A stretch of 43,359 nucleotides of DNA from an uncultured Gammaproteobacteria bacterium (GCA_964566895.1 CAZMJP010000002.1:1-43359), one strand, 5' to 3'; counted from the first letter of the stretch, positions 7,458-24,395 are shown. Translations and numbers: made by a program. Notes: generated from the letters alone by a model not told the origin.

Positions 7458-7865
7458 TCAAGAGGTGATCTTCGGCTCCTGACCATAAAATGGTTGAACT
7501 ATCCTCTTCTCTCTAAACTTTAATAATTTAGCCAAACCCCTATTCATCAATATTTTATTGTCCTCGCTTGGCCGCAAATTAACTCCGACAACCGGAATCC
7601 TTAACAGCCAAGCCAAAGTATTAGCCACGGACAAAGCGATTCTAATGCCGGCAAAAGAACCCGGGCCATTAACCACAACAATCCCCTTAATGGCTTTCCA
7701 AGACTTCCTGTTTCCTTTTAAAAGCCTATCTATGCCTTTTAAGATATTTTCACTTTGATTATTTTGTTTTGGCGAATCAATCCAAACTAAATTCTTGTCA
7801 TTTCTACTTTTGAACAAAGATGAAAATACTTTATTGCCGGACAAATTATTGATGAATAAAAACAT
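7458..7865 (-). CDS. tsaB: tRNA t6A biosynthesis protein TsaB, short form
   Basis: The GPGSFAGIRIALSVANTLAW motif is characteristic of TsaB/YeaZ. The protein is only 135 aa, so only the N-terminal half of the usual protein is present. Confidence 0.65.
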   Translation of the reverse strand: MFLFINNLSGNKVFSSLFKSRNDKNLVWIDSPKQNNQSENILKGIDRLLKGNRKSWKAIKGIVVVNGPGSFAGIRIALSVANTLAWLLRIPVVGVNLRPSEDNKILMNRGLAKLLKFREKRIVQPFYGQEPKITS

Positions 7866-7935
7866 ATATTTTGTTTACACTCTTATTGATTTGTATTATA
7901 ATATAATTGCCCTAATTTATCAATCATACAATTCT

Positions 7936-12055: not shown

Positions 12056-12562
12056 TTATCTAGCTACCCAAATTTCAGTTGTATTCTCAGACTCGCAAGC
12101 TCTAACTGTAATAATACCAGTGCTTGAACGTTGAAGGGTATAACCAGTCATACCCGCCGTCCAAGTACCAGCGCCATTCGGACTGATTGCCACATCGCCC
12201 AAATATCCCTCAGTAACCAACCCGGCCAAATTAACACAACTCGTATCGTCCTCAACAGCGGTATCACAACTTGCGTTCTGGTCGTCACAGCCCTCCGCCA
12301 CATCTCCGTTGGTAATCATATAGACATTCCCGGCGTCCATATTGGCAATTGCCGTCAAATAAGAACCGTTATTGTCAATCTGGTCTACTTTAATGGCGTT
12401 CAAGATTTCCGTTATATCAGCCCAGCGGTGTGAATCTCGGGCATCTTTAAATCTGGTTAAGGGGTCAAGAGCGACAAAAACCACCGCTGCCAAAATAGCA
12501 ATCACGGCAATAACGATTAAAAGCTCGATAAGGGTAAAACCTCTGTTTTTTGTTTTCAACAT
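12056..12562 (-). CDS. Type IV pilin, probable major subunit
   Basis: Prepilin leader and methylation motif KNRGFTLIELLIVIAVIAILAAV. The 168-aa protein has Cys pairs in its C-terminal half and is followed by its own terminator. Confidence 0.88.
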   Translation of the reverse strand: MLKTKNRGFTLIELLIVIAVIAILAAVVFVALDPLTRFKDARDSHRWADITEILNAIKVDQIDNNGSYLTAIANMDAGNVYMITNGDVAEGCDDQNASCDTAVEDDTSCVNLAGLVTEGYLGDVAISPNGAGTWTAGMTGYTLQRSSTGIITVRACESENTTEIWVAR

Positions 12563-12584: not shown

Positions 12585-14699
12585 TTATTGATTACCAGCG
12601 GTTTTTACAGCATAATCTGAAAAAACCCAACCCTGAGTCTCTTTATCTACCTCTATTTTATACCATCCGTCCTGTTCTTGCAAGAGTGGATAATTCTCTC
12701 CCGGATAAGCCCTGCCTATTTTAGAATAATTAGTCCCCGGTCCCGACCTGATATTTAACCAGCCAACCTCCGTGTCTTGAATCGTTACTAATTCTTTTTT
12801 CTCTGATTCTCCCGTTTCTTTTTCTAAAACCTGCTCTTCCACCTGTTCTACCTCCTCTTTTTGTCTTTTTTCTACTTCTCCTCCGGACTCCGCCTCCTCT
12901 TCTTCTTTAATTTCAATTAACTGATTGATAGAAACCGTTACTTTACCAAAAAGAAAATACATGTCTTTATCGTCGCTAGGTTCCAAATCGGTCTTAATAA
13001 TGTTATTTAAAGCATAATCAACGTTATTTTTATTTAATTTGTCCACTTCTCCCAAGAGTATCTTATTAGCGTCCCCCTCCGAATAAACAAGCCACTTAAT
13101 AATAAGGGGAAAGATAAGTTCTTTCGGTTCCGGACTTATCGGTTCTTCCCATAAAACTTCTCCCGGTTGCAGTTCTTTCCCGGCTAAAATTTTTGAATTT
13201 GCCCGGGCTTCATTATAATCACCGGCTCCCTTAATGGTGTTCTCAATTATCCGCCCCCTGACTCTGTCGCTGGTATATTCTTCCGCCTTAACAACCACCG
13301 GAACTCTCAAATCAAAAATTTGTATTTGGCTGTATTGGCTGACCATAGATTCTATCTCTCGTTTTTTTTGTTCCTTCTCGTGCCTTCGATAAGTGAGGGC
13401 TAAGCTAAAACCGACTATACCTAAAATGAGGATAATAATCAACAACGCCTTTTGCAAACGAATTTTCTTTTTTCTAAGACCATCCTCTTCTGGTCGATAC
13501 GTTTTTAAATTTTCCTTCTCCCCGCTCCCCTCCTCCGTCATCGGAGTTTCTACCTTTGCGATTTCCGACTCCTCGCTCCTTAAACTTCCCGATTTTTCCA
13601 CCAGTTTTATAACCGGATGATCCTTATCCCACTTCCTCTTGTTTAAATCGCGTAAAGCCAATCCAATAGCTTCAATGTATAAAAACGGCTTTACTTTTTT
13701 AAACGCGTCAACATCTAAAGATGACTCTCCAAGCCGGACCGGTAAATCAACTTTACCCCTAAAATACTCAAGCAAACCCCTTAACCGACTGGACCCACCA
13801 ACTAAAATAATTTCGCTGACCTTTTTATTCGCCTTGTTTTCAAAATATCTAAATAATCGGATTATTTCTTCTACCACCGGCTCTAATACCTTTGTCAAAA
13901 TGTTTCCCACTGCTTTTGTCCCGGAAGCGGTCGGAGGCAATAAACCATTCTCTATTTTTAGTTCTTCCGCTTGTTCCTGTTTAACCTTTAATTCCTCAGC
14001 AATTTTCTGAGTTAATAAATTACCGGCTAAATTAATTGAATAAGAATAACGCAAATCATTCCTATCAAAAATAGCCACAGTCGTGGTAACCGCGCCCATA
14101 TCAATAATACAGATCGGCTCTTTCGGAGGTTTAACAAATAATCCCCTAAACACAGCCAGGGTTTCAATATCAAAAAACTCTATCTCTATTTTCAAATCTT
14201 GAAAAAACTTTTGCCATTCTGAAACCGCTTCACGACTGACCGCTACGGCCAAAATTTCCACCTTAATTCTTCTTTGATCTAAAACTACGGCCTTTAATAT
14301 CTTATAATTAAATAGGATGTCTTCTTTTTTCAGTGGAATGCTCTCTTGCACTTCTTTTAAAATCAACTTGTCTCTAATACTAGTCAGAGTCTCAGCCACG
14401 CTTTTATCTTTGATAATTAAATCAAAAACATGCGTATAAACCTGGCTCTCGGGTAGTCCAAAGACGAGCCTCTTGGCTATAATTCGTTTAGGCTCGGCTT
14501 TTAAAAAAGTTTGTCTCACTGCTTCAGTTAGTTTTTCTTGGTTTTTAATTCTCCCTCTCTCAACAATACCAGGCTCTAACTTAATTCTGCCAACATTCAA
14601 AATCTTTGTTTTTCCGGCCTTACTTACTAATTCCACCGCCTCAATGGTGTGGTCGGCAATATCCAAACCAATAGATTTTTTTTGGAATAAATTCAACAT
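12585..14699 (-). CDS. pilM: Type IV pilus assembly protein PilM fused to a PilN-like membrane segment and a C-terminal SH3b domain
   Basis: N-terminal actin-like ATPase of PilM type (GLDIADHTIEAVEL..., IIDMGAVTTTVAIF, ILVGGSSRL). A transmembrane helix (ALLIIILILGIVGFSLALTY) and an extracytoplasmic domain follow. The protein ends in an acidic linker and an SH3b-like region (GWLNIRSGPGTNYSKIGRAYPGENYPLLQEQDGWYKIE). Confidence 0.8.
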   Translation of the reverse strand: MLNLFQKKSIGLDIADHTIEAVELVSKAGKTKILNVGRIKLEPGIVERGRIKNQEKLTEAVRQTFLKAEPKRIIAKRLVFGLPESQVYTHVFDLIIKDKSVAETLTSIRDKLILKEVQESIPLKKEDILFNYKILKAVVLDQRRIKVEILAVAVSREAVSEWQKFFQDLKIEIEFFDIETLAVFRGLFVKPPKEPICIIDMGAVTTTVAIFDRNDLRYSYSINLAGNLLTQKIAEELKVKQEQAEELKIENGLLPPTASGTKAVGNILTKVLEPVVEEIIRLFRYFENKANKKVSEIILVGGSSRLRGLLEYFRGKVDLPVRLGESSLDVDAFKKVKPFLYIEAIGLALRDLNKRKWDKDHPVIKLVEKSGSLRSEESEIAKVETPMTEEGSGEKENLKTYRPEEDGLRKKKIRLQKALLIIILILGIVGFSLALTYRRHEKEQKKREIESMVSQYSQIQIFDLRVPVVVKAEEYTSDRVRGRIIENTIKGAGDYNEARANSKILAGKELQPGEVLWEEPISPEPKELIFPLIIKWLVYSEGDANKILLGEVDKLNKNNVDYALNNIIKTDLEPSDDKDMYFLFGKVTVSINQLIEIKEEEEAESGGEVEKRQKEEVEQVEEQVLEKETGESEKKELVTIQDTEVGWLNIRSGPGTNYSKIGRAYPGENYPLLQEQDGWYKIEVDKETQGWVFSDYAVKTAGNQ

Positions 14700-14777: not shown

Positions 14778-16064
14778 TTATTTTTCTTCACCAGTCATTG
14801 GCAGGCTGACATAAAATGTCGACCCTTTATTTTCTTCTGATTCAAACCAAATCTTTCCATTTAAGACTTTCATAATCATCTTGGCAATATAAAGACCAAG
14901 TCCTGCTCCTTCAGTTTCTATTTTTTTAGCATTATCCGCTCGGAAAAATTTTTCAAAAATACTCGGCTTTGCTTTTTCCGGTATGCCAATACCGCTATCT
15001 CTAACGCTAATTAAATATTCTTCATTATTCTTTTGCTCCAATTTAACTAAAATATCGCACTCCCTTTCCGGCGAGTATCGAATGGCGTTAGTCAATAAAT
15101 TATGGAGGACCTGTCGGATTAAATCCGAGTCAATCAAAATTTTAGACAATTTAGTCTCAGGTCTTTGAAAAACTAAACAACATTTTCTAATCCCAGCCAA
15201 AGGACTGACTTCATTAATAACGTTCTGAATAAGATTTTCAAATTGAACCAATTGCAACCTAACCTCCAATTTGCCTGTTTCAAGGCGAGAAACATTAAGA
15301 AAATCGTCAACCAATTGAGTTACCCGTTTAGCCGAATAATAAATATTATCCAGATATTCTCCGTATTTATCACTTAAACTGCCTATTTTCTCATTGCGAA
15401 GCATTTCAGTAAATAAACGAATAGAAGTTATCGGGGTCCGAAGTTGATGAGAGGTAATAGAAATAAACTCATCTTTCATTTCCTCGGCTTTTTTTTGTTT
15501 GACTGACAAAACCCCGCTTAAAAACGCCACCCCAAAAAAAATGAGTATCCGATTCAAAAGAACGGAAAAAGCAATATAAACATTATCCTGCCATTCTAAG
15601 ACCTGGGCCCCAATCTTAGAAATATGGGGAATAAACTCATAGACCTCCAAAAGCGTTAAACCTAGATAAGCAACGCTGGAAAAAATAGCTATCCCCATAC
15701 CGGCATTTAGAGAAAATAATATAGCCAAAGTAGTAATCGGAATAAGATACAGAAAACTAAAAATACTGGAAAATCCTCCCGTATAATAAACAATCAAAGT
15801 GATTAAACAAACTTCGCCGACTGGCCATAACCAAACCGCCAGTTTAAGCAACTTGCCCCTTTTAACAAAACAGCTGAAAAATAAGTTCAGTCCAACCATA
15901 GCTATCAGAGAATAAAAGACTGTTTGCCAGGGGAAAACAATCCCAGTCGGAATATAAAACAATAAGACGATTAAAGAGGAAACTATGGTCAACCAGGATA
16001 CTTTAGCTCGTCGGCCTAAATTTATTATCAAATTATTTTGTTGGATTTTTTGTTTTTCTTGCAT
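14778..16064 (-). CDS. Membrane sensor histidine kinase (PilS-like topology)
   Basis: About six N-terminal transmembrane helices, an H-box (ITSHQLRTPITSI), an N-box (LLTNAIRYS) and G-boxes (DSGIGI, GAGLGLYI). Confidence 0.88.
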   Translation of the reverse strand: MQEKQKIQQNNLIINLGRRAKVSWLTIVSSLIVLLFYIPTGIVFPWQTVFYSLIAMVGLNLFFSCFVKRGKLLKLAVWLWPVGEVCLITLIVYYTGGFSSIFSFLYLIPITTLAILFSLNAGMGIAIFSSVAYLGLTLLEVYEFIPHISKIGAQVLEWQDNVYIAFSVLLNRILIFFGVAFLSGVLSVKQKKAEEMKDEFISITSHQLRTPITSIRLFTEMLRNEKIGSLSDKYGEYLDNIYYSAKRVTQLVDDFLNVSRLETGKLEVRLQLVQFENLIQNVINEVSPLAGIRKCCLVFQRPETKLSKILIDSDLIRQVLHNLLTNAIRYSPERECDILVKLEQKNNEEYLISVRDSGIGIPEKAKPSIFEKFFRADNAKKIETEGAGLGLYIAKMIMKVLNGKIWFESEENKGSTFYVSLPMTGEEK

Positions 16065-16172: not shown

Positions 16173-16607
16173 TTACTCCTCCTCCCAGTTATCTAAACTA
16201 ATAACATTATCCGTCAAGGTCAAGTCCGCTTGTATCCTCTTATAATACTCGTTGTTTACCGACCCAACAAGATTAATCCTTCTTTGGCCGCCTCCTAAAT
16301 CCGATACTTGTATTATACACGAACTGTTATCAAGTGTTAAGTTTATTTCTCCTTGCCCGACTCCATAATCAGTCTTAAGACGAATCTGACGCAAAACCTC
16401 TTCCAGGCATCCATCAGCTGTTGATAAAGTTTCCATTCCTTTTTGAGAAGTATAACCTAAATCTAACTCGCCCAACCCCAATATTGAGGCGCTATAAGCC
16501 ATAATCAAAACCGCCGCTCCGACAATAATAACAGTCATCAACGCCGCAACAGCGGACTGAGAATTTGTGATTTGTGATTTATGATTTGTAATTTCTTTAA
16601 TTCGCAT
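16173..16607 (-). CDS. PilX-like minor pilin / pilus assembly protein
   Basis: The hydrophobic N-terminal helix SAVAALMTVIIVGAAVLIMAYS is followed by a small globular domain. It sits within the minor-pilin gene set. Confidence 0.5.
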   Translation of the reverse strand: MRIKEITNHKSQITNSQSAVAALMTVIIVGAAVLIMAYSASILGLGELDLGYTSQKGMETLSTADGCLEEVLRQIRLKTDYGVGQGEINLTLDNSSCIIQVSDLGGGQRRINLVGSVNNEYYKRIQADLTLTDNVISLDNWEEE

Positions 16608-16637: not shown

Positions 16638-17174
16638 TTACTGCCTCAAGCTCACCGCCGTTCGCAAATTATATGAATATCCGTACCCCGCCCCTCCGGA
16701 ATCGTCATTATACCTAACCGTCATCTCAATTCTGATATTCTCTCGGTTAGCCGCTAAAGGAGTAAGATTAGTAAAAACTAAATTAACAACCTTAACTTTA
16801 TTGTTGGTTATAACTACCGGGTCGTCTGTTCCTCGTCTAATCTGCAAAAAACCGTCATCAGAATCTAAATCAATAATCGTTGGATTTTCCTCGCTATTAG
16901 CCATAATCAGAGACAAAACCCCCGGGTCGCTGTCAAAAGTAGAGGATTCGATATTAACGCCGGTCGCGGCCCGTATCTCCCGACTTATCAAATCTAAGGC
17001 GGTCCGGGCATTCGCTTGAACCTCTTGAATAACATAAGCCTTGTTTCGCGTTTTGGAAATAGAGATGCTAAAACCGACAAAAGCAACCACCAGTATGGAA
17101 ATAATAGTAAGATAAACTAATGTTTCAATAAGCGTAAACCCAACTTTTGATTTACTTGATTGAATCTTAACCAT
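16638..17174 (-). CDS. Minor pilin with prepilin-type N-terminal cleavage/methylation domain (PilW-like position)
   Basis: KVGFTLIETLVYLTIISILVVAF motif. Start is taken at the ATG at 17174; the track start at 17180 is a TTG. Confidence 0.8.
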   Translation of the reverse strand: MVKIQSSKSKVGFTLIETLVYLTIISILVVAFVGFSISISKTRNKAYVIQEVQANARTALDLISREIRAATGVNIESSTFDSDPGVLSLIMANSEENPTIIDLDSDDGFLQIRRGTDDPVVITNNKVKVVNLVFTNLTPLAANRENIRIEMTVRYNDDSGGAGYGYSYNLRTAVSLRQ

Positions 17175-17193
17175 TGACAATTGAAAGATTAGA

Positions 17194-20100
17194 TTATTTA
17201 TAATTTATTCTGACTTCCTCCAATATCGGCGTGTCTAAACCGTCGCCAATCAACTCAACTCGATACTGAAGCCATTGATTGTCGTTCAAATCTGAAGAAA
17301 TTAGCGATCCGTCGGCGTTGGTAAAATAAGACCCCGGGCCATCTACTCCAAACCAGTTTGTCCAAGGACTGGGCGACCCCCCTGAGTCGGGAGCAACCCT
17401 TATTTGCAACTTGATTTGACAAGATAAAGAACAAGCAGGTATATTTTCACCCCAATCTATAATTTGGACAGGAGAAATGTCGCCCATATTAAAGGCTGAA
17501 GAAATCAGATAGCCGTTTTGAACAAATAACGCTTCTCTGGTGAAGTGAATTATCGTCCCGTTATTGCCGACCGTCCAACCGTCGATTTCAGAAATCATCC
17601 CTACTGAATTAAGATTTCTGTTTGTCGGAGATGAAAAATCAGCCCAACCCCCGTCAAGCCATCTGTATATTTCTCCGCTGCTGCCCATTGCCCAGCCATC
17701 GTCGGCCGTGATAAAATAAACGCTTCGCCAATTAGTACTCCCGGTATCAATGAATTGAGTCCAGTTAGTCCCATTATAACGATATATTCTCCCGCTGTCG
17801 CCGACTAACCAGCCGTCGCCGGCCTCTAACATAAAAACAGAATTCCAAACCTGACTTCCGGTATCAACAAATTGATTCCAATCAGTTCCGTTATAGTGAT
17901 ATATTTTACCATCATTACCGACTAACCAGCCGTCGCTATCTGAAACCATATCTAATCCTCTCCAGTTCATCTTCCCCGTATCAGCAAATTCTGTCCAATC
18001 AACCCCGTTATAATGATAAATTTTGCCGCTTTCCCCGGCGGCCCAGCCATTGTCAGAAGACAACATATAAATAACATTTATATCTCGCCGTCCCAAATCA
18101 ACAAATTCAGACCAAGCCGAGCCGTTATAATGAAAAAATTTCCCGCTTTCCCCGCCCGCCCAACCGTCATCGGCCGCCGTCATTTCAACGGCATATAAAT
18201 CTTGTTCGCCCAAATCAATAAATTCGCTCCAATCATTACCGTCGTAGTGCAAAATTTCGCCACTATTGCCTACGGCCCAAATATCGGACGAAGAGACAAC
18301 GTCAATTCCGTTTAAATTTTTATCAGTCGGCGTATTGTAAACAATAGTAACATCAGCCAGCTCCGGCGTCTCAAGACCAGAATCCCCTTTTGTTAAAGTC
18401 GCGCGATACTGCAAATACTGACGACTGGGAGAAGAAATATAGGACGATTCCGGGTCGGTCAGCTCGCCGCTGAATGACGACCAACTGCCATCCGGAATCG
18501 GCGTATTGCCTGTTCTGGTAGCGATAGTTAAGTCTGAACCTGCCGGCAAAACTTCCGTCCAGTAAATCATCTCCCAACGGGTATTTATCTCCTCGCTGTT
18601 GAAAATCCGCGAGAAGAACACGCCCGATTCAGGATAAAAATCGCCATATTGGTAAATTCTTCCGTCGTCACCCATTACCCAACCACTATCGACGGAAGAG
18701 AAACAAATTGCCCGCCAGTCCATCCCTCCGTTGTCGACAAATTCACTCCAAGACGTTCCGTTATAGTGATATATTTTCCCGCTTTCGCCGGCGGCCCAAC
18801 CATCATTGGAAGACAACATCTGAACAACGTTTATGTCATTGCTGCCGAGGTCGGCAAACTCAGACCACATCCAGCCGTTATAATGAAAAAATTTCCCGCT
18901 ATCGCCGACGATCCAACCGTCATTGGGGAAGACCATATCAATATCATTCAAATCCTGAGAGCTAATTTCGTCAAGTTCCACCCAAAACGTCCCATTATAT
19001 TGGGCGATATTTCCTTTATCGCCGACGGCCCAGCCGTCATTGGCCGTTATCATAGCCACGGCTCTCCATATTTCTCCTCCAGTATCGGCAAACTGACTCC
19101 AATTAACACCATTATATTTATATATTTTCCCGCTGTCTCCCACAGCCCAGCCATTGTCAGAATAAACCATATCAATACCAAATAAATCATTGCTAAAATT
19201 GTATAATTGGGTCCAATTAAATCCATTGTAACGGTATATTTTGGCGCTTTCGCCCACAGCCCAACCATCGTTGGCTGAAATCATCTCAAGACCGTTTATA
19301 TCGTCGCTGCCCAAATCAGTAAATTCAGTCCAATTGCTTCCATTATAATGGAGTATCTCTCCGCCGCCAGCCGAAGCCCAAATATCATCAGCACTTAAAT
19401 AAGTTATATCGGTTATTTCGTTTGTCGTGGCACTCTGGCTGTCGTTATGCTCTGTCCAAAGGGTATCCTGCTCTAAAAAAACACCGGCGTCTTCTCCTGT
19501 CCCAACGACAACGGTGTTATTAAACTCTTCCCCGGCATTAAAATCAACATCTGTAATGTCTCTAAACTGTTCTCCTCCGGCTAAAATCCAAGAACCATCT
19601 CTGGCTTTAGCTAATCGGATTTCTCCCATCACGCTATAGTCAATATTATTGTCATCAGAATTATATTTGGTTTGATCCGACCAGATGTCCTGTCCTGGAC
19701 CGCCCACCCAATTAGTTTGAATCCACTCTTGCGAGTCCCAATTAGTTAAATAAGTTATCTTCTGAACGGAATTAATTATTCCCGGCCTAACTTCCCAGGT
19801 GACTGTGACAGTCACTTTTTTGCTGTGTAGGTCAGAATAAAGCCCGGGGCAAGCGGTAATCTCGTCTAAAATGTTCCGGCAAACATTTTCAAAAGTAATT
19901 GTTCGGGTATATTGATCTATTTTTTCCGCGGTTCCTTCGCCGGAGAAAATCCACTTTCCCTCATTTATCTCCACTCCGCTCTGATTATAAATAAATTCAT
20001 TCCAACCTCTGCCCCGAATCGACCGAACGGCCTCAACACCTTCCTGAGCCAACGCCTCGGCCTGAGTTTGTTCCCCTCCCTGCCCCAAAGCGTTAAAACC

Positions 20101-20220
20101 TCCTAAAGCCAGAGAAATCATTACAGCGCTAATCAAAGAAAAAATAGCCATAGCAATGACGAGTTCAAGGGTACTCTGGCTATGGCGAGAAAGACTTTTG
20201 AATGAATAAGATATACTCAT
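17194..20220 (-). CDS. Giant pilin-headed protein with two beta-propeller repeat blocks and two beta-sandwich modules; candidate pilus tip adhesin
   Basis: The N-terminus has a pilin-like helix with Glu (QSTLELVIAMAIFSLISAVM). There are 13-14 repeats of about 39 aa with consensus W.EF.D.G....n.v.m.s..DGWAvGdsGkIyhYNG. Two related modules end in QYLQYRATL...TPELADVTIVY and QWLQYRVEL...TPILEEVRINY. Confidence 0.85.
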   Translation of the reverse strand: MSISYSFKSLSRHSQSTLELVIAMAIFSLISAVMISLALGGFNALGQGGEQTQAEALAQEGVEAVRSIRGRGWNEFIYNQSGVEINEGKWIFSGEGTAEKIDQYTRTITFENVCRNILDEITACPGLYSDLHSKKVTVTVTWEVRPGIINSVQKITYLTNWDSQEWIQTNWVGGPGQDIWSDQTKYNSDDNNIDYSVMGEIRLAKARDGSWILAGGEQFRDITDVDFNAGEEFNNTVVVGTGEDAGVFLEQDTLWTEHNDSQSATTNEITDITYLSADDIWASAGGGEILHYNGSNWTEFTDLGSDDINGLEMISANDGWAVGESAKIYRYNGFNWTQLYNFSNDLFGIDMVYSDNGWAVGDSGKIYKYNGVNWSQFADTGGEIWRAVAMITANDGWAVGDKGNIAQYNGTFWVELDEISSQDLNDIDMVFPNDGWIVGDSGKFFHYNGWMWSEFADLGSNDINVVQMLSSNDGWAAGESGKIYHYNGTSWSEFVDNGGMDWRAICFSSVDSGWVMGDDGRIYQYGDFYPESGVFFSRIFNSEEINTRWEMIYWTEVLPAGSDLTIATRTGNTPIPDGSWSSFSGELTDPESSYISSPSRQYLQYRATLTKGDSGLETPELADVTIVYNTPTDKNLNGIDVVSSSDIWAVGNSGEILHYDGNDWSEFIDLGEQDLYAVEMTAADDGWAGGESGKFFHYNGSAWSEFVDLGRRDINVIYMLSSDNGWAAGESGKIYHYNGVDWTEFADTGKMNWRGLDMVSDSDGWLVGNDGKIYHYNGTDWNQFVDTGSQVWNSVFMLEAGDGWLVGDSGRIYRYNGTNWTQFIDTGSTNWRSVYFITADDGWAMGSSGEIYRWLDGGWADFSSPTNRNLNSVGMISEIDGWTVGNNGTIIHFTREALFVQNGYLISSAFNMGDISPVQIIDWGENIPACSLSCQIKLQIRVAPDSGGSPSPWTNWFGVDGPGSYFTNADGSLISSDLNDNQWLQYRVELIGDGLDTPILEEVRINYK
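17542..18315 (-). repeat. Intragenic tandem repeat block 2 (about 7 units of about 117 nt, propeller blades)
   Basis: Covers aa ~636-893. Units end in HYDG, HYNG, HYNG, HYNG, RYNG, RWLDG and IHF, and belong to the same repeat family as block 1. Confidence 0.8.
18646..19419 (-). repeat. Intragenic tandem repeat block 1 (about 7 units of about 117 nt, propeller blades)
   Basis: Covers aa ~268-525 of the 1008-aa protein. Seven successive units end in HYNG, RYNG, KYNG, QYNG, HYNG, HYNG and QYG. Confidence 0.8.
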
Positions 20221-20246: not shown

Positions 20247-20729
20247 TCAATGACTTTCCTTTATTATCCCCAGGCTATTTATACTAATTGTTCTGTTACC
20301 GCTCGTTTCATGAGTTAAGATAATCGCGCCGGCATTGGGCAGACCCGCTCCCAAAGGCAGTCCAAACCCTTTGGAAAAATTAACATCATTATCAACTAAT
20401 GTCGTTGATATATGGAGAGAATCGTCTAAAGTTGTCTCTCTGTCATAGTTGCTCTCTCTCTCAGTATAAGAGGGTCCTTGATATAAAATGTATTTGTCAT
20501 TACCGGAGTTTATTTCAAAATAAACGCCGTGAGTCGCATCGTTTAGTCCGGCAACGCTGCGTCCTCGAGCTGTTCTTAAAATTTGAATAATTTGCGCCGA
20601 ACTCTCATTAAGCTGGCTCTCAACCTGTAAATTGCCGTAAATCGGTATCGCGGCCGTCGTTAGAATAACGATAATGGCGATAACAATAAGAAGTTCAATT
20701 AAAGTGAAAGATTGTCTTATTTTTGACAT
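20247..20729 (-). CDS. Minor pilin (GspH/FimT-like position), prepilin-type N-terminal domain
   Basis: RQSFTLIELLIVIAIIVILTTAA motif. Start is taken at the ATG at 20729. The gene ends at a TGA stop. Confidence 0.82.
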   Translation of the reverse strand: MSKIRQSFTLIELLIVIAIIVILTTAAIPIYGNLQVESQLNESSAQIIQILRTARGRSVAGLNDATHGVYFEINSGNDKYILYQGPSYTERESNYDRETTLDDSLHISTTLVDNDVNFSKGFGLPLGAGLPNAGAIILTHETSGNRTISINSLGIIKESH

Positions 20730-20749
20730 AAACAAAAGGTGGAGCGATA

Positions 20750-21844
20750 TTATCCTCCGATGTTCCCGGTAATATTGTAAATGGGAGTGATAATTGATAA
20801 AGCCAAGAAACCGACCACTAAACCGATAAAAATCAACAAAACCGGTTCAATGGCCGTTGATAAAGTCTTGGTCGAAGTATCAACCTCAGACTCATAAAAA
20901 TCGGCTAAATAAAACAGGACCTCCTCTAAACGTCCCGATCCTTCTCCAACCTTAATCATCTTAACCACTAAAGCGGGAAATATATCTTTGAAATAAATCA
21001 AATTATCCGAAAGTTTAATCCCTTTGCTAATCCGCTGGCCGGACTGAGACAGGGCCTTCCCATAGTAATAATTACTCATTGTTTGGGCGGTAATATTTAC
21101 TGCCTCGTCAAGATTGAGTCCGCTTTTTATTAAAGTGCCTAAAGTTCTGGAAAAACGAGCCAAATTGGTATGAATAACGAGTTTCTTAATAATCGGGAGT
21201 TTTAAAAAAAGCCAGTGAGTGACCGGTCGAACCCACCTTTGTCTGACCAGCCAAACCGTCAGAATAATCACGGCAATAAGCAAGATAAACAAAATTAATC
21301 CATGATCTTCGATAAAATGAGAAAACCAAATTAAAACCCGGGTTGTCACCGGCAAATCCGCTTTTAGTCCCTCAAATAAAGGGGTGATCTTGGGTAAAAT
21401 AACGAAAGAAAGAATTATCGCCAAAACAAAAGCCGCCACTAAAACGACAATTGGATAAAGCATCGCTCCTTTTATCTTTGAAATCAGCTCTCTTTCTTTT
21501 TCTAATTGTTTGGCGATATTCTCCAAATTTTCCTCTAATGTCCCGGAAGATTCCCCGGCTAAAGTAGCATTAATAAACAAACCGGAAAAAAATCTCTGAT
21601 AATCGCCCAACGAAGAAGAGAGCGAACGCCCGGCCCTGACTGATTTTAAAACACTTCTCAATACTCCTTTAAGTTTTCCTGTGGCCGAAGTCTCGACAAG
21701 ATTCAAGGCCTCGGTAATAGTCAAACCGGATTTTAACATCACGGCTAAATGCCTAGCCAAAAGCGCTTTTTGGGTTAGGGTTACGCCGCCAATGGCAATT
21801 TCTTTCTCCAAAACCCCCTTTTTTTGTTCGATTTGTTCAGACAT
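20750..21844 (-). CDS. pilC: Type IV pilus platform protein PilC (GspF family)
   Basis: 364 aa with two repeated GspF-type cytoplasmic domains and three transmembrane helices. The C-terminus (EPVLLIFIGLVVGFLALSIITPIY) is typical of the family. Confidence 0.9.
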   Translation of the reverse strand: MSEQIEQKKGVLEKEIAIGGVTLTQKALLARHLAVMLKSGLTITEALNLVETSATGKLKGVLRSVLKSVRAGRSLSSSLGDYQRFFSGLFINATLAGESSGTLEENLENIAKQLEKERELISKIKGAMLYPIVVLVAAFVLAIILSFVILPKITPLFEGLKADLPVTTRVLIWFSHFIEDHGLILFILLIAVIILTVWLVRQRWVRPVTHWLFLKLPIIKKLVIHTNLARFSRTLGTLIKSGLNLDEAVNITAQTMSNYYYGKALSQSGQRISKGIKLSDNLIYFKDIFPALVVKMIKVGEGSGRLEEVLFYLADFYESEVDTSTKTLSTAIEPVLLIFIGLVVGFLALSIITPIYNITGNIGG

Positions 21845-21849
21845 ATTTA

Positions 21850-23541
21850 CTATTCTCTAGTTACTCTTAGCACCTCTTCCAAGGTGGTGATTCCATTAAA
21901 AACTTTTTCTATCCCATCCTCTAACATCGTTGTCATCCCATTCTTAATCGCCACTTTCATCAACTGTTCGCTTGAAGAACGTCCAATGATCAAACTCCTA
22001 ATATCTTCACTCATTTCTAAAACCTCAAAAACCCCAATCCGACCGACATAGCCCGTGCGAGCGCAAACTTTGCAACCAAAACCCCGATAAAGAATAATTT
22101 TATTTAAATCCGTCTGCCCATTAGCTTTTAAAATCTCTATTAAACGCGGCTCTTTTTGAATAACTGCTTTTTCCTCATTAGTTAGTTTACAAGAGTACCG
22201 ACACTTCGGACAAATTTTTCTGACTAACCTCTGAGCAATGGCGACATTAACGGTCGAAGCGACCAAAAACGGCTGAACCCCCATATCTAATAATCTCGGC
22301 AAGGTTGTCGCCGCATCGTTGGTATGAAGAGTCGATAAAACTAAATGTCCGGTCAAAGCCGAATTGACGGCGATACCGGCTGTTTCTTTGTCTCTGATTT
22401 CTCCGACCATAATAATATCCGGGTCCTGACGAACAATGGCTCTCAACCCTTTGGCAAAAGTCAGATTGGTTCTGGGATTAACTTGAATCTGGCTTACTCC
22501 CTCTATATCATACTCAACCGGGTCTTCAATGGTTGAGATATGAACGTCGCGAGTATTTAAAATCTTTAAAACAGCGTAAAGGGTGGTCGTCTTCCCGCTG
22601 CCGGTCGGACCAGTAACTAAAATCATTCCATGAGGACGCCCAACAGCCCCTTTAATCTTTTCTAAATCAGAAGATAATAAACCTAAATCTGTCAAACTAA
22701 ACTGCCGGCTTTTAACTGACAAAAGCCGCATTACCACATTCTCCCCTTCAACCACCGGGATTATTGAAACCCTGACGTCAACCAGTCCGTCTTTAACGTT
22801 AAAACGAAATTTGCCGTCCTGAGCTGCCCGATGCTCATCGGTTCTCATTCTGGATAAAATTTTAATTCTGGTGATAACAGAATCCAATAAATCTTTTGGC
22901 AAAGATAAAACATCGTGCATGACGCCATCTATTCTAAAACGGACCACAATCTTGTTGATATACGGCTCAACATGAATATCCGACGCCTTATTTTGATAAC
23001 CGTACATCAAAATGGTATCAACCATTTTTACCATAATTTCGTCTCTTTGGGTTCCGCTTAGAGTTCTATTTTTGAATTGCTTTAAAATTTTATCAAATTC
23101 CTGCCTTAAAGAGGGTTGATAACTGAAAAGAGCCTCGCGTAAATCTAATTTGGTGATGAAATAAGGGAAAATTTTCTCCCCGGTCCGTTTCTCTATAAAA
23201 TGCTGTATCTCCAAATCGTCCGGATTCCTCATTCCGACTTTTATCCCCTCTTTAGACCTGGCAAAGGCAATTACGCCTTTGGATTCAGAGACTAACTCGG
23301 GAATTAAATTAAGCGTTTCCTCGTCTATCTTCTCTTGTTTAAGATTAACATAACGCCAACCCGCGTCTTCGGCAATTAATCTCCCCAATTGGTCATCTTT
23401 AATGACATCCCCTTCTATTAAAACGTCAGCCAAATTTTTCCCTTGCTTCTCGGCTTTTTTAACATTTGACTCAAAATCGTCCTCGCTGATATGACCGGGC
23501 TGAACCAAAAGTTCTTTTAGTTTTTTAACTGCTATTTGCAT
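21850..23541 (-). CDS. pilB: Type IV pilus assembly ATPase PilB (GspE family)
   Basis: Walker A (GPTGSGKTTTL), Asp box, Walker B (IIMVGEIRD) and His box (TGHLVLSTLHTND). The tetracysteine motif (CPKC...CKVC) and an N-terminal GspE-N domain are also present. Confidence 0.93.
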   Translation of the reverse strand: MQIAVKKLKELLVQPGHISEDDFESNVKKAEKQGKNLADVLIEGDVIKDDQLGRLIAEDAGWRYVNLKQEKIDEETLNLIPELVSESKGVIAFARSKEGIKVGMRNPDDLEIQHFIEKRTGEKIFPYFITKLDLREALFSYQPSLRQEFDKILKQFKNRTLSGTQRDEIMVKMVDTILMYGYQNKASDIHVEPYINKIVVRFRIDGVMHDVLSLPKDLLDSVITRIKILSRMRTDEHRAAQDGKFRFNVKDGLVDVRVSIIPVVEGENVVMRLLSVKSRQFSLTDLGLLSSDLEKIKGAVGRPHGMILVTGPTGSGKTTTLYAVLKILNTRDVHISTIEDPVEYDIEGVSQIQVNPRTNLTFAKGLRAIVRQDPDIIMVGEIRDKETAGIAVNSALTGHLVLSTLHTNDAATTLPRLLDMGVQPFLVASTVNVAIAQRLVRKICPKCRYSCKLTNEEKAVIQKEPRLIEILKANGQTDLNKIILYRGFGCKVCARTGYVGRIGVFEVLEMSEDIRSLIIGRSSSEQLMKVAIKNGMTTMLEDGIEKVFNGITTLEEVLRVTRE

Positions 23542-23568: not shown

Positions 23569-23973
23569 CTACTCTTTTTTGGTCAGTTTAGCTATCTCTT
23601 TGCATCCTAAAAGCAAAAAAAGGTTTCCTAAAAGCCATAAACTTGGACCAATAACCGCCACCCAAATATCTTCCCTTAAATCAAAAACGCTGAAAGAAAA
23701 CCACAAAAAGCCAACTGTATAAATCATCATCACCACACAGGTGGCTATTCTTGAGAACGCTCTTTCCAAAACGCCGCCAGCCATAATCTTTGCGGCGCGA
23801 TAAAGATAATAAAAAGCAATTAAAGCGATAATAGCCGCCGCTATACTTATCGCCAACCCGACGACGTCAGCCGTGCTTATTGGTATTCCTAAAACATTAT
23901 AAAATTTCATAAACGCCTTGTTTAGTAAAAGTAGTCTACAAATCCATGCGGACGCCACGAATAATAGTCTCAT
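23569..23973 (-). CDS. Integral membrane protein, unknown function
   Basis: 134 aa with four hydrophobic helices. It lies between the receiver gene and pilB in the same orientation. Confidence 0.45.
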   Translation of the reverse strand: MRLLFVASAWICRLLLLNKAFMKFYNVLGIPISTADVVGLAISIAAAIIALIAFYYLYRAAKIMAGGVLERAFSRIATCVVMMIYTVGFLWFSFSVFDLREDIWVAVIGPSLWLLGNLFLLLGCKEIAKLTKKE

Positions 23974-24017: not shown

Positions 24018-24395
24018 TTATTTATTTAAAATATCTTTTATTTTTTCAATCACGTCTCTCATTGTGGCGTTGGATTTGACGATATAATCCACCGCCCCAA
24101 GCTCTTCGCTTTTTTTAATATCTGACTCTTGGCTTAAATTAGAAAGAACCATAATGGGCAGGTTTGATATCTTGTTTTGTTTTATTTCTTCCATAACTTC
24201 AAAACCGCTTTTAAGAGGCATAATCAAGTCGAGCAGGAGTAAGTCGGGTTTTTCCGATTTTATTTTTTCAACAGCTTCCCCCCCATTGCTGGCGACAATC
24301 ACCTCAAAACCAGCCTGACTTAATCCATCTTTATAAGCCCGACAAATAAACTGGTCGTCCTCAGCAAGTAAAATTTTCGGTTTCTCGTTAGACAT
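24018..24395 (-). CDS. Stand-alone response regulator receiver protein (CheY-like)
   Basis: 125 aa with the acidic pocket DD (LLAEDDQ), phospho-acceptor D (LLLLDLIMP) and conserved S/T and K (VLSNL, KS). There is no output domain. Confidence 0.88.
   Translation of the reverse strand: MSNEKPKILLAEDDQFICRAYKDGLSQAGFEVIVASNGGEAVEKIKSEKPDLLLLDLIMPLKSGFEVMEEIKQNKISNLPIMVLSNLSQESDIKKSEELGAVDYIVKSNATMRDVIEKIKDILNK

What the first reader, a model, noticed from the sequence alone, without database searches (positions are those of the whole stretch)
17194..20220. 1008-aa pilin-headed double-propeller protein: candidate directly polymerised pilus tip adhesin
The N-terminus has a hydrophobic pilin-type helix with Glu at the expected position (S|QSTLELVIAM...). 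A ~250-aa pseudopilin-like globular region follows. The rest comprises two blocks of about seven 39-aa blades (DGWAVG..GKIYHYNG consensus), each followed by a ~110-aa beta-sandwich ending in a (Q)(Y/W)LQYR...TP.L..V.I.Y motif. Proteobacterial PilY1 is a propeller-containing adhesin but is not itself a pilin. Here the adhesin module seems to be fused to a minor pilin. I do not recognise this architecture as a described family.
Basis: partly seen in the sequence, partly recalled or inferred. Interest (0 to 1): 0.78.

Follow-up and report, generated by a model that had tools for sequence, protein, structure and literature searches.

The report
Giant pilin carrying two propellers
This gene encodes a 1008-residue minor subunit of a type IV pilus in an ultrasmall Patescibacteria bacterium; its pilin stalk carries two seven-bladed propellers, most likely a pilus-tip adhesin, which is a known kind of protein from a family nobody has studied.

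Summary
ORF 17194-20220 lies on the minus strand and encodes 1008 aa. It has a pilin-type N-terminus, then two units of a 7-bladed, 39-aa-period propeller plus a ~105-aa beta domain. The units are 40% identical to each other, and the AF2 model has pLDDT 88.

The gene sits in a type IV pilus operon: pilB, pilC, ~160-aa pilin, this gene, ~180-aa pilin, ~144-aa pilin without Glu5, pilM, major pilin. This order is conserved in distant relatives.

It belongs to a large Patescibacteria family found in at least 153 species genomes. Members share a ~200-aa pilin module, weakly GspI/PilV/ComGE-like, and a ~110-aa C-terminal beta domain. Between these lies a variable cargo slot of 6 to more than 2100 aa. 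Cargo is one to three Ycf48-like propellers, or mostly lectin-type modules such as LamG, H-lectin, CBM2, pentaxin and LVIVD.

The best reading is a modular minor pilin displayed at the pilus tip as a binding module.

One deviation stands out. The target has Ser, not Gly, at position -1. Neighbouring pilins in this lineage also use Ser or Ala there.

The novelty is less than claimed. Modular pilins (Raynaud 2021) and a propeller-bearing Patescibacteria pilin (TM7x PilX2) are already published. This family itself is uncharacterised.

The parts
17194..20220 (-). Whole ORF, 1008 aa: a modular minor pilin with double-propeller cargo.
   Evidence: 893 homologues found. AF2 mean pLDDT 88.1.
20179..20220 (-). 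Hydrophilic leader peptide, aa 1-14, ending in Ser14 at the position that is Gly (-1) in relatives.
   Evidence: Family alignment. Position -1 across 184 N-termini is G 170, A 10, S 1. Ser14 (codon AGC) is identical in every cluster member whose call includes this residue.
20011..20178 (-). Alpha-1 helix, aa 15-70. It includes Gln+1, the invariant Glu+5 (E19) and the hydrophobic tract QSTLELVIAMAIFSLISAVMISLALGGF.
   Evidence: DSSP helix at 15-70 in the full model and 8-71 in the module model. E19 and F27 are invariant.
19720..20010 (-). Pilin head, aa 71-167: an antiparallel beta-sheet with a conserved Cys114/Cys124 pair.
   Evidence: Strands 79-85, 88-94, 103-114, 127-144, 147-158. C114 and C124 are invariant. 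Weak sub-threshold GspI/ComGE/PilV hits.
19621..19719 (-). Trp-rich conserved segment, aa 168-200 (WxQT[DN]WxGGxGQxxW...Y.SDD.N). It ends the conserved N-terminal module and is predicted with low confidence.
   Evidence: W171, G176 and W180 are invariant. pLDDT is 36-59 here. It was the pattern used to find 153 related loci.
19435..19620 (-). Beta-hairpin region, aa 201-262, preceding the first propeller. It is part of the cargo rather than the pilin module.
   Evidence: Strands 200-256. It is absent from non-propeller family members, whose similarity to the target stops near aa 200.
18634..19434 (-). Propeller 1, aa 263-529: seven 39-aa four-stranded blades.
   Evidence: Foldseek match to Ycf48 5ojr_D: TM 0.72, rmsd 3.7.
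18319..18633 (-). Beta domain 1, aa 530-634, ending QYLQYRATLT...TPELADVTIVY. It is a paralogue of the C-terminal domain.
   Evidence: 35% identity to aa 896-1008, E = 4e-11. Predicted strands.
17536..18318 (-). Propeller 2, aa 635-895: seven blades.
17197..17535 (-). Family-defining C-terminal beta domain, aa 896-1008 (SSAF...W.E..P...Q.R.APD..G.P..W..W.G...YFT...NQWLQYR..L.GDG..TP.L.EVRINYK).
   Evidence: Present at the C-terminus of 195 family proteins whatever their cargo. No Pfam or PDB sequence match.
20247..20735 (-). Upstream 162-aa minor pilin (RQS|FTLIEL) at the GspH/FimU/ComGD position.
   Evidence: PF07963 3.6e-6. NCBIfam hits, all below their curated cut-offs: ComGE 2e-8, GspH 6e-7.
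16638..17180 (-). Downstream 180-aa minor pilin (KVG|FTLIET) at the GspJ/PilW/ComGF position.
   Evidence: PF07963 4.8e-5. Weak hits to HpsC, ComGF and Verru_Chthon cassette protein C.
16173..16607 (-). 144-aa pilin-like protein without Glu5 (NSQS|AVAALMTVIIVGAAVLIMAY) at the GspK/PilX/ComGG position.
   Evidence: Sequence. A conserved counterpart lies at the same position in L001-L005, L011, L025, L036. No Pfam hit.
21850..23541 (-). PilB/GspE-type assembly ATPase.
   Evidence: PF00437 1e-127; TIGR02538 4e-155.
20750..21844 (-). PilC/GspF platform protein.
   Evidence: PF00482 1.5e-53.
12585..14699 (-). PilM-like protein fused to a TM/linker region and a C-terminal SH3_3 domain.
   Evidence: PF11104 2e-30; PF08239 9e-13.
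12056..12562 (-). 168-aa canonical pilin (NRG|FTLIELLIVIAVIAILAAV), the likely major pilin.
   Evidence: PF07963 5e-10. Equivalent genes lie at the operon end in L001 and L002.

Best explanation
The protein is a modular minor type IV pilin of a Patescibacteria pilus.

Proposed mechanism:
1. The hydrophilic leader is removed by the prepilin peptidase after Ser14 (inferred).
2. The hydrophobic alpha-1 helix, with Glu5, lets the subunit join the three other minor pilins encoded beside it. It occupies the GspI/PilV/ComGE position of a GspH-I-J-K-like set. Together they form the complex that primes filament assembly on PilC/PilB and therefore ends up at the distal tip (inferred from homologous systems).
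3. The ~800-aa cargo is thereby displayed at the tip. It consists of two Ycf48-like seven-bladed propellers, each followed by a beta domain.
4. The cargo acts as the ligand-binding module, most probably for surface glycans or proteins of a host or partner cell (inferred).

Shown here:
- the domain anatomy;
- the pilus-operon context and its conservation;
- membership of a family with a conserved pilin module, a conserved C-terminal beta domain and a swappable cargo slot dominated by lectin-type modules.

Inferred: cleavage, incorporation into the pilus, tip location and the ligand.
For: Anatomy:
- 56-residue N-terminal helix, beta-sheet head, 2 x 7 blades and 2 beta domains, mean pLDDT 88.
- Blade period and internal duplication confirmed.

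Pilin signature in the family:
- Among 184 distinct N-termini, -1 is G 170/A 10/S 1, +1 is Q 122/F 27, +5 is E 172.
- PF07963 is hit by 21 of 41 full-length homologues and 17 of 20 N-terminal modules.
- Sub-threshold hits: ComGE 16/20, GspI 13/20 (best 3.9e-5), XpsI 9/20, PilV 7/20.

Context:
- pilB, pilC, 162-aa pilin, target, 180-aa pilin, 144-aa Glu5-less pilin, pilM, major pilin.
- The same order is seen around homologues that are 47% and 36% identical and in further loci.

Family:
- At least 153 species-representative genomes encode the module.
- 344 clusters (50% identity) match at E <= 1e-30.
- 195 proteins carry both the N-terminal and C-terminal modules, with inserts of 6-2116 aa. Twelve have essentially no insert.
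- Propeller inserts come in three size classes: ~285, ~700 and ~1000-1120 aa.
- Non-propeller cargo: Laminin_G_3 (10/34), Laminin_G_2, LVIVD, Pentaxin, H_lectin, DUF4082, CBM_2, MAM, trans-sialidase C-terminal domain, neurotoxin receptor-binding domain.
- Cargo differs between proteins whose flanks are 77-80% identical.

Structural analogues of the cargo are ligand-binding double propellers: the Bacteroides hybrid two-component sensor domains BT4663, BT4673 and BT3049 (E = 1.5e-18), PorZ, and Ycf48 bound to the D1 peptide.

Precedents:
- S. sanguinis PilB and PilC are modular pilins that act as adhesins and are modelled at the tip (PMC8179133, PMC9934059).
- TM7x PilX2, a propeller-bearing minor pilin, is needed for normal host binding (PMC11623550).
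Against: - The target has Ser at -1. Reviews state that the bacterial leader ends in Gly, or in Gly/Ala, and that this residue is critical for processing (PMC4471445; PMC9934059).
- The target alone has no Pfam or NCBIfam hit.
- Foldseek with the N-terminal module model (pLDDT 75.7) found no significant PDB match, pilin or otherwise. The profile search of PDB sequences gave only non-significant hits to pilin N-termini.
- The GspI/PilV assignment rests on sub-threshold hits and on gene order.
- No prepilin peptidase and no PilT is encoded in the window.
- No ligand, binding site or expression evidence is available.
- pTM of 0.59 means the relative orientation of the domains is not established.
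Confidence: 0.65

Rival explanations
1. The protein is an uncleaved, membrane-anchored surface protein. Because -1 is Ser, the N-terminus acts as a signal anchor. The propellers sit on the cell surface and are never polymerised into a pilus.
For: Ser14 occupies the position where Gly is reported as critical. The target has no N_methyl hit. TM7x PilX1 and PilX2 likewise lack a predicted PilD signal.
Against: The rest of the class III motif is intact, including Glu5, the hydrophobic tract and a 56-residue helix. 92% of family members have Gly at -1. In this operon and in its closest relatives several other pilins also carry Ser or Ala in the same column, whereas distant relatives have Gly throughout. 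That pattern fits a lineage-wide change in peptidase tolerance better than loss of processing in one protein. Ser14 is conserved in every cluster member whose call includes it.
Confidence: 0.15
2. The protein is mainly an assembly-priming or regulatory subunit, a functional analogue of PilY1 in anti-retraction or surface sensing. Alternatively it could be a ligand sensor feeding the adjacent PilS-like kinase, rather than an adhesin.
For: It sits at a core minor-pilin position in the operon. The top structural analogue is a sensor domain of hybrid two-component systems. A 6TM PilS-like kinase and a response regulator lie in the locus.
Against: Twelve family members have no cargo at all, and others carry quite different cargo. 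The cargo is therefore dispensable for whatever the conserved core does, as expected of an exchangeable binding module. The kinase is absent from the equivalent loci L001 and L002.
Confidence: 0.1
3. The pilus is a competence (Com-like) or secretion pseudopilus, and the protein serves DNA uptake or secretion rather than cell adhesion.
For: The best sub-threshold hits of the pilin modules include ComGE, ComGF and ComGD, and GspH, GspI and GspJ. No PilT is encoded in the window.
Against: The family's cargo is dominated by lectin and carbohydrate-binding domains and propellers, not DNA-binding modules. These hits are driven by the N-terminal helix and fall below curated cut-offs. In TM7x the propeller-pilin pilus did not affect competence.
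Confidence: 0.07
4. The propellers are catalytic, for example a BNR/GH74-like glycoside hydrolase carried on the pilus.
For: The PSII_BNR-like repeat family is related to BNR repeat proteins, and tandem 7-bladed propellers occur in some glycosidases (own knowledge, not tested).
Against: No glycoside hydrolase family was hit in Pfam or NCBIfam. No hydrolase appears among the top 50 Foldseek matches. The conserved blade positions are the structural W and G residues only.
Confidence: 0.03

Closest known systems
Modular type IV pilins: Streptococcus sanguinis PilB (vWA module) and PilC (lectin module). Raynaud et al. 2021 (PMC8179133); Shahin et al. 2023 (PMC9934059).
   Same: An N-terminal pilin module carries a bulky module that is not specific to pilus biology. 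Both are proposed to be tip-exposed and to mediate adhesion. Both occur in a cell without an outer membrane. Raynaud's Dataset S1 lists one protein with the architecture IPR012902 - IPR028203 (N_methyl + PSII_BNR), and the paper mentions a Falkowbacteria pilin with 12 LVIVD (IPR013211) repeats, a cargo also found in this family.
   Different: Here the cargo is inserted between the pilin module and a conserved ~110-aa C-terminal beta domain, rather than simply appended. The cargo is a tandem of two propeller+beta-domain units. There is no detectable sequence relationship to PilB or PilC, and no experimental data exist.
Nanosynbacter lyticus TM7x PilX2 (bioRxiv 2024.11.25.624915; PMC11623550).
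   Same: It is a Patescibacteria minor pilin with a C-terminal seven-bladed beta-propeller and a non-canonical signal peptide. Its deletion halves host binding but does not stop filament extrusion.
   Different: PilX2 has a single propeller of RCC1 repeats. The target has two propellers of 39-aa Ycf48/PSII_BNR-like blades plus beta domains. None of the 41 homologues hits an RCC1 family. That paper reports only 10-25% query coverage between TM7x pilins and other Patescibacteria.
PilY1/PilC tip adhesins of proteobacterial type IVa pili.
   Same: Both are propeller-containing proteins associated with the minor-pilin tip complex, with a variable adhesive part (as described in PMC8179133).
   Different: PilY1 is not a pilin, and its propeller (IPR008707) is the conserved carrier module. 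Here the carrier is a pilin module and the propellers are the variable cargo. There is no PilY1/PilC family hit.
Periplasmic sensor domains of Bacteroides hybrid two-component systems (BT4663: 4a2l/4a2m; BT4673: 3va6; BT3049: 3v9f) and PorZ (5m11).
   Same: They are the best structural matches to the whole model (E = 1.5e-18 to 2e-15). They share two tandem seven-bladed propellers followed by a beta-sandwich, and they are extracytoplasmic ligand-binding proteins.
   Different: TM-scores are low (0.23-0.32) and identity is 11-12%. None has a pilin module. These are fold analogues only. No Reg_prop or Y_Y_Y family hit was found.
Ycf48/HCF136 (PF14870 PSII_BNR).
   Same: It is a seven-bladed propeller of the same repeat type. 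15 of 41 homologues hit PF14870 (best 1.4e-29). Foldseek against 5ojr_D gives TM 0.72, rmsd 3.7 and 18% identity.
   Different: Ycf48 is a single-domain photosystem II assembly factor. The target itself does not reach E <= 0.01 against PF14870, and its context is unrelated.
Verru_Chthon cassette proteins A-D (NCBIfam TIGR02596-TIGR02600).
   Same: It is an uncharacterised four-gene cassette of prepilin-type proteins, one of which is ~1300 aa. The neighbours of the target give weak hits to cassette proteins C, D and A, and 2 of 20 N-terminal modules hit B.
   Different: All hits are far below curated cut-offs. In that cassette the giant member is protein A, not the GspI-like position. It belongs to a different phylum.

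Membership tests
Type IV pilin (class III signal peptide) | A short hydrophilic leader ending in Gly (or Ala) at -1. | tested here: not met
   The target has Ser14 at -1. In the family the position is G 170/A 10/S 1 of 184. Ser is real, being identical in every cluster member whose call includes residue 14. Other pilins of the same operon and of its closest relatives also use Ser or Ala.
Type IV pilin (class III signal peptide) | A ~21-residue hydrophobic tract interrupted by Glu at +5. | tested here: met
   QSTLE(+5)LVIAMAIFSLISAVMISLALGGF. E19 is invariant in alignment A2 and is E in 172 of 184 family members.
Type IV pilin (class III signal peptide) | Match to the N_methyl models (PF07963 / TIGR02532). 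| tested here: inconclusive
   The target gives no hit at E <= 0.01. 21 of 41 full-length homologues and 17 of 20 N-terminal modules do.
Type IV pilin (class III signal peptide) | Lollipop fold: a ~50-residue alpha-1 helix plus an antiparallel beta-meander head. | tested here: inconclusive
   AF2 predicts a helix at 15-70 and a 5-6-stranded antiparallel sheet. Foldseek against the PDB gave no significant match to any pilin.
Type IV pilin (class III signal peptide) | Encoded with the assembly ATPase, the platform protein and other pilins. | tested here: met
   PilB, PilC, PilM and four other pilin-like genes lie in one minus-strand cluster. The synteny is conserved.
Type IV pilin (class III signal peptide) | [quoted passage not shown] | not testable with these tools
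   This needs biochemistry. No peptidase A24 gene lies in the window.
Modular pilin (sensu Raynaud et al. 2021) | [quoted passage not shown] | tested here: met
   The pilin module spans aa 1-200 and is followed by two Ycf48-like propellers and beta domains. Relatives of the propeller occur in non-pilin proteins, several with hydrophobic N-termini suggestive of ordinary signal peptides, at 23-38% identity.
GspI / PilV / ComGE-class core minor pilin | Sequence match above the family cut-off, and second position in an H-I-J-K minor-pilin gene set. | tested here: inconclusive
   Only sub-threshold hits: GspI 13/20 members (best 3.9e-5; target 0.05), ComGE 16/20, PilV 7/20. The gene order fits.
PilY1/PilC adhesin | A C-terminal PilY1/PilC-type propeller (IPR008707) and no pilin N-terminus. 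| tested here: not met
   No such family was hit in the target or in 41 homologues. The protein has a pilin-type N-terminus.
Ycf48 / PSII_BNR propeller (PF14870) | Match to PF14870 and a seven-bladed propeller fold. | tested here: inconclusive
   The target gives no hit at E <= 0.01. 15 of 41 homologues hit (best 1.4e-29). The fold match to 5ojr_D has TM 0.72.
TM7x PilX2-type propeller pilin | A C-terminal propeller built of RCC1 repeats. | tested here: not met
   There are no RCC1 family hits in 41 homologues. The blades are 39 aa long and PSII_BNR-like.
Patescibacteria 'cargo-slot' minor pilin family (defined here) | A conserved ~200-aa N-terminal module with the WxQT[DN]WxGG motif and a Cys pair, plus a conserved ~110-aa C-terminal beta domain ending ...QYR..L.GDG..TP.L.EVRINYK. 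| tested here: met
   The target was the query. 195 proteins share both ends. The relevant alignments are A2 and A3.

The most novel reading that the evidence does not exclude
The target represents a Patescibacteria-wide 'cargo-slot' pilin. A conserved GspI-like pilin module and a conserved C-terminal beta domain would act as two fixed ends, between which lectin, propeller and other binding cassettes are exchanged by recombination. Propeller units would also be gained or lost. On this reading the gene is the main host- or partner-specificity determinant of these episymbionts, analogous to the modular receptor-binding proteins of phage tails. In the target's sub-lineage the prepilin peptidase would, in addition, have relaxed the otherwise strict Gly(-1) rule to accept Ser or Ala.
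Probability: 0.35. Interest if true: 0.7.

Novelty: new variant of a known kind. Interest (0 to 1): 0.5.

Why it matters
Patescibacteria form a large share of bacterial diversity, and all cultivated members are obligate epibionts. How they recognise hosts is largely unknown, and type IV pili are the leading candidates (PMC11623550).

A single conserved operon position carries an exchangeable set of lectin-like or propeller modules in at least 153 species. That would give a genome-readable handle on host or ligand specificity. It would also give a defined protein to express for glycan arrays, binding assays or host pull-downs from uncultivated lineages.

The Ser/Ala at -1 in a whole set of co-encoded pilins also bears on the substrate rule of bacterial prepilin peptidases. 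It would affect pilin prediction tools that require Gly.

Tried and rejected
- Plus-strand reading of the coordinates: full of stop codons. The gene is on the minus strand.
- PDB sequence search with the whole protein: nothing significant. The best hits were E = 0.09 for TLAP2 and E = 2 for tectonin 2.
- Profile search of the PDB with the N-terminal module: only non-significant hits to pilin N-termini.
- Foldseek with the N-terminal module model: no match at E <= 0.001. The minor-pilin class could therefore not be fixed by structure.
- C-terminal beta domain: no PDB sequence match and no Pfam family.
- DNA-level tandem repeats in the gene, which would suggest slippage or phase variation: none.
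- Prepilin peptidase and PilT: sought in the rest of the window and not found.
- Strain-level diversifying selection: the 90% cluster has 6 nearly identical members with about six variable residues, too few for any test.
- Provenance look-up of the exact protein: not on record.
- Sequencing error as the cause of Ser14: rejected, because every cluster member that includes residue 14 agrees.
- PilY1 membership: rejected (no family hit; the protein has a pilin N-terminus).
- Homology to TM7x PilX2: judged unlikely because the repeat type differs, but not tested directly.

Full report

An ORF occupies exactly 17194..20220, but on the minus strand (ATG start, 1008 aa). The plus-strand translation is full of stops.

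The N-terminus reads MSISYSFKSLSRHS|QSTLELVIAMAIFSLISAVMISLALGGF.

The motif (D/N)GW(A/L/I)(V/A)G recurs fourteen times with a strict 38-39-residue period. It occurs seven times in residues 268-539 and seven times in 635-907. Pairwise blade identities reach 74%.

Each block is followed by a beta-rich segment of about 105-113 aa ending in QYLQYR...TPxLxxVxIxY. These two segments are 35% identical (E = 4e-11). The two complete propeller+beta-domain units are 40% identical over 379 columns (E = 1e-85).

There is no tandem repeat at the DNA level, so the duplication is old.

An AlphaFold2 model built on 41 full-length homologues has mean pLDDT 88.1 and pTM 0.59. It contains a helix at 15-70, a beta-sheet head at 79-167, a low-confidence stretch around 177-183 and a small beta-hairpin region at 200-256. 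Then come two sets of seven four-stranded blades, each followed by a beta domain.

The gene is on the minus strand. The conserved pilin module is about 200 aa, not 250.

**2. Surroundings**

All genes from about 12.0 to 24.4 kb are on the minus strand and tightly spaced. In transcription order they are:
- response regulator (24018-24395);
- small membrane protein;
- PilB/GspE ATPase (21850-23541; PF00437, 1e-127);
- PilC/GspF platform protein (20750-21844);
- 162-aa pilin (20247-20735; N_methyl 3.6e-6; weak GspH and ComGE hits);
- the target;
- 180-aa pilin (16638-17180; N_methyl; weak ComGF, HpsC and Verru_Chthon C hits);
- 144-aa pilin-like protein without Glu5 (16173-16607);
- PilS-like 6TM histidine kinase;
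- 704-aa PilM fusion with a C-terminal SH3 domain (12585-14699);
- canonical 168-aa pilin, NRG|FTLIELLIV... (12056-12562), the likely major subunit.

The rest of the window encodes ribosomal proteins, translation factors and cell-wall enzymes typical of a small genome. No prepilin peptidase or PilT gene lies in the window.

The order pilB, pilC, ~155-aa pilin, giant pilin, ~175-aa pilin, ~140-aa Glu5-less pilin, pilM-like, major pilin(s) recurs elsewhere. It is seen around homologues that are 47% (P0020) and 36% (P0065) identical, and in several genome loci.

This four-gene order matches gspH-I-J-K, fimU-pilV-pilW-pilX and comGD-GE-GF-GG (established knowledge of those operons). The target sits in the second (GspI/PilV/ComGE) position. 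The last gene lacks Glu5, as GspK does.

**3. The family**

A database search returned 893 hits. The named ones are all Patescibacteria: Uhrbacteria, Buchananbacteria, Magasanikbacteria and "Patescibacteria group bacterium AH-259-L05/L07". Sources call them "hypothetical" or [quoted passage not shown]. Lengths cluster near 590, 1000 and 1400 aa.

Of 41 full-length homologues, 21 hit PF07963 N_methyl and 15 hit PF14870 PSII_BNR (best 1.4e-29). None hits a PilY1/PilC or RCC1 family. The target itself reaches no Pfam or NCBIfam threshold.

Many hits share only the first ~200 aa (50-66% identity) and the last ~110 aa (45-61% identity) with the target, and have entirely different middles.

Among the proteins fetched, 195 carry both end modules. 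The insert between them ranges from 6 aa to 2116 aa. After removing near-duplicates of the target, 79 carry Ycf48-like propellers, 99 carry other cargo and 12 carry none. Propeller inserts come in three size classes of about 285, 700 and 1000-1120 aa, which corresponds to one, two or three units.

In 34 non-propeller members the cargo was identified as follows:
- Laminin_G_3 / concanavalin-like lectin (10);
- Laminin_G_2 (8);
- LVIVD repeats (3);
- pentaxin (3);
- H-type lectin (2);
- DUF4082 (2);
- one each of CBM_2, MAM, WD40, trans-sialidase C-terminal domain, PorZ-type propeller and clostridial toxin receptor-binding domain.

Cargo type does not follow the relatedness of the flanks.
- P0025 and P0142 have 79% identical N-terminal and 78% identical C-terminal modules, yet one carries propellers and the other different cargo.
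- P0007 and P0126 have 77.5% and 80% identical end modules, again with propeller versus other cargo.
- P0012 and P0031 have identical flanks but differ by one ~280-aa propeller unit. Metagenome assembly collapse could also explain this last case.

The N-terminal module profile matches 344 clusters (50% identity) at E <= 1e-30. The motif WxQT[DN]WxGG retrieved 153 species-representative genomes. Named ones include Magasanik-, Uhr-, Falkow-, Buchanan-, Ryan-, Sung-, Vogel-, Komeili-, Berkel- and Dojkabacteria and Microgenomates. Some record titles say "Gammaproteobacteria" or "Saccharibacteria". I take these to be placeholder labels of automated submissions, not evidence of wider distribution.

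**4. Is the N-terminus a pilin signal?**

Across 184 distinct family N-termini, position -1 is G 170, A 10, S 1. Position +1 is Q 122, F 27. Position +5 is E 172. The consensus (K/R)G|QSLLEVIVAMAIFSL is a class III signal peptide with an unusual Gln at +1.

The target is the single member with Ser at -1. This is not an error. The codon is AGC, and every cluster member whose call includes residue 14 agrees; these come from JGI, ENA, Logan and NCBI assemblies.

Reviews state that the bacterial leader ends in Gly (Berry & Pelicic 2015, PMC4471445) or in Gly/Ala (Shahin 2023, PMC9934059), and that this residue is critical. For the target this defining feature is therefore not met.

However, other pilins of the same operon show the same deviation. 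They carry Ser in the same aligned column: RQS|FTLIEL and NSQS|AVAALM. The closest relatives do the same. In L004 (AH-259-L07) the leaders read MKS|F, NA|Q, PA|F, KA|F and KS|A. In L005 they read IKS|F, KA|Q and PS|A. More distant relatives have Gly in every pilin.

The simplest reading is a lineage-wide relaxation of the -1 rule to small residues. This is known for archaeal prepilin peptidases (own knowledge). Loss of processing in a single protein is the less likely explanation. This is an inference.

**5. Fold-level evidence**

For the N-terminal module alone, AF2 (pLDDT 75.7) gives the expected lollipop topology: a helix at 8-71 followed by an antiparallel sheet. The Trp-rich conserved tail (163-200) is unstructured in this model.

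Foldseek against the PDB found nothing significant (best E = 0.03, unrelated methyltransferases). The profile search of PDB sequences gave only non-significant alignments to pilin N-termini.

NCBIfam gives sub-threshold hits for the modules: ComGE 16/20, GspI 13/20 (best 3.9e-5), XpsI 9/20 and PilV 7/20. The GspI/PilV-class assignment is thus a lead supported by gene order. It is not a demonstrated membership.

For the whole model, the best PDB matches are proteins with two tandem seven-bladed propellers followed by a beta-sandwich. These are the periplasmic sensor domains of the Bacteroides hybrid two-component systems BT4663, BT4673 and BT3049 (E = 1.5e-18 to 1e-16) and PorZ (2e-15). Eukaryotic double WD40 proteins also match. 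For a single propeller the match is Ycf48 (5ojr_D: TM 0.72, rmsd 3.7, 18% identity). These are analogies of fold, with low global TM-scores of 0.2-0.3.

The C-terminal beta domain has no Pfam or PDB sequence relative.

Within blades, the conserved positions are the structural Trp and Gly residues at register 13, 16, 19, 26 and 29. The least conserved positions fall in loops and exposed strand positions at register 5, 17, 20, 27, 31-33 and 37-39. Relatives of the propeller at 23-38% identity occur in non-pilin proteins of other bacteria, several with hydrophobic N-termini suggestive of ordinary signal peptides. The cargo was therefore probably recruited from a widespread extracytoplasmic family.

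**6. How it most likely works**

*Shown:* the anatomy, the operon context, and family membership with a swappable cargo slot rich in lectin-type domains.

*Inferred from homologous systems:* after removal of the 14-residue leader, the alpha-1 helix lets the subunit assemble with the three neighbouring minor pilins. That complex primes polymerisation on PilC/PilB and so caps the filament. The cargo is then displayed at the tip. Two precedents support this.
- In S. sanguinis, the modular pilins PilB and PilC are adhesins modelled at the tip.
- In the Patescibacterium TM7x, the propeller-bearing minor pilin PilX2 is needed for normal host binding but not for filament extrusion.

*Inferred from cargo content:* the slot carries binding modules. 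For the target the ligand is probably a surface glycan or protein of a partner cell.

The function of the conserved C-terminal beta domain is unknown. Because it is retained even in cargo-less members (~310-330 aa), it probably belongs to the core of the subunit, for example by docking to the pilin heads of the tip complex. This is speculation.

*Rivals considered:*
- an uncleaved membrane anchor, because of Ser at -1 (about 0.15);
- a mainly priming, regulatory or sensing role (about 0.10);
- a competence or secretion pseudopilus (about 0.07);
- catalytic propellers (about 0.03).

**7. Comparison with what is known, and novelty**

The kind is known. Raynaud et al. 2021 defined modular pilins. 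They catalogued more than 1200 proteins in 264 architectures, many from candidate phyla. Their list includes one IPR012902-IPR028203 (N_methyl + PSII_BNR) protein, and the text mentions a Falkowbacteria pilin with 12 LVIVD repeats, a cargo also seen in this family.

A propeller-carrying Patescibacteria pilin with an adhesion phenotype (TM7x PilX2) was reported in 2024. It has a single RCC1-type propeller and, by that paper's own BLAST survey, little similarity to pilins of other Patescibacteria.

PilY1 is not a pilin, and its propeller is the conserved carrier rather than the cargo.

I did not find the following described (literature searches):
- the family-level organisation, meaning a fixed pilin module and a fixed C-terminal domain flanking a slot of 0 to more than 2000 aa at a fixed operon position in at least 153 species;
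- the tandem Ycf48-like propeller+beta-domain cargo;
- the Ser/Ala at -1 in a whole set of co-encoded pilins.

I therefore rate the finding as a new variant of a known kind. Interest is moderate, about 0.5.

Noticed in passing
window 20247-20735, 17194-20220 and 16173-16607 (- strand); loci L004 and L005: [quoted passage not shown] More distant relatives have Gly in every pilin. This suggests a lineage-specific relaxation of prepilin peptidase specificity.
   Followed up: partly
window about 19621-19743 (- strand), aa 160-200 of the target: The Trp-rich motif W..W.QT(D/N)W.GG.GQ..W...Y.SDD.N is the most conserved stretch of the family. Yet both AF2 models predict it with pLDDT below 60. It may become ordered only in a complex, or it may be a hinge between the pilin head and the cargo.
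   Followed up: no
proteins P0012 (1268 aa) and P0031 (1000 aa), relatives of the target: Their N- and C-terminal modules are identical, but they differ by one ~280-aa propeller unit. This is either a recent gain or loss of a unit or an assembly collapse of repeats.
   Followed up: partly
window 12585-14699 (- strand): The PilM homologue is a 704-aa fusion. It has a PilM/FtsA-like ATPase fold, then a charged linker with a TM segment, and ends in a bacterial SH3_3 domain. The same PilM+SH3_3 combination occurs in locus L001.
   Followed up: no
window 14778-16064 and 24018-24395 (- strand): A PilS-like histidine kinase (6TM_PilS + HisKA + HATPase) is inserted between the minor pilin genes and pilM. 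A stand-alone receiver-domain response regulator lies upstream of pilB. The kinase is present in L005 but absent from L001 and L002.
   Followed up: no
window 23569-23973 (- strand): A 134-aa multi-pass membrane protein without any family hit lies between the response regulator and pilB. Similar small ORFs occur upstream in L005 and L003.
   Followed up: no
window 7795-9969 (+ strand) and 38280-39785 (- strand): Two long ORFs (724 aa and 501 aa) have no Pfam hit. The 724-aa ORF is one of the few on the plus strand. It has a central TM segment, and its C-terminal half looks repeat-rich by eye.
   Followed up: no
window 41586-42419 (- strand): A Bro-N domain protein (PF02498, 1.3e-9), a domain usually associated with phages and mobile elements, lies near the end of the window.
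   Followed up: no
family N-termini: Gln is the commonest residue at +1 of the mature pilin module (122 of 184), rather than the usual Phe. What this means for N-methylation is unknown.
   Followed up: no
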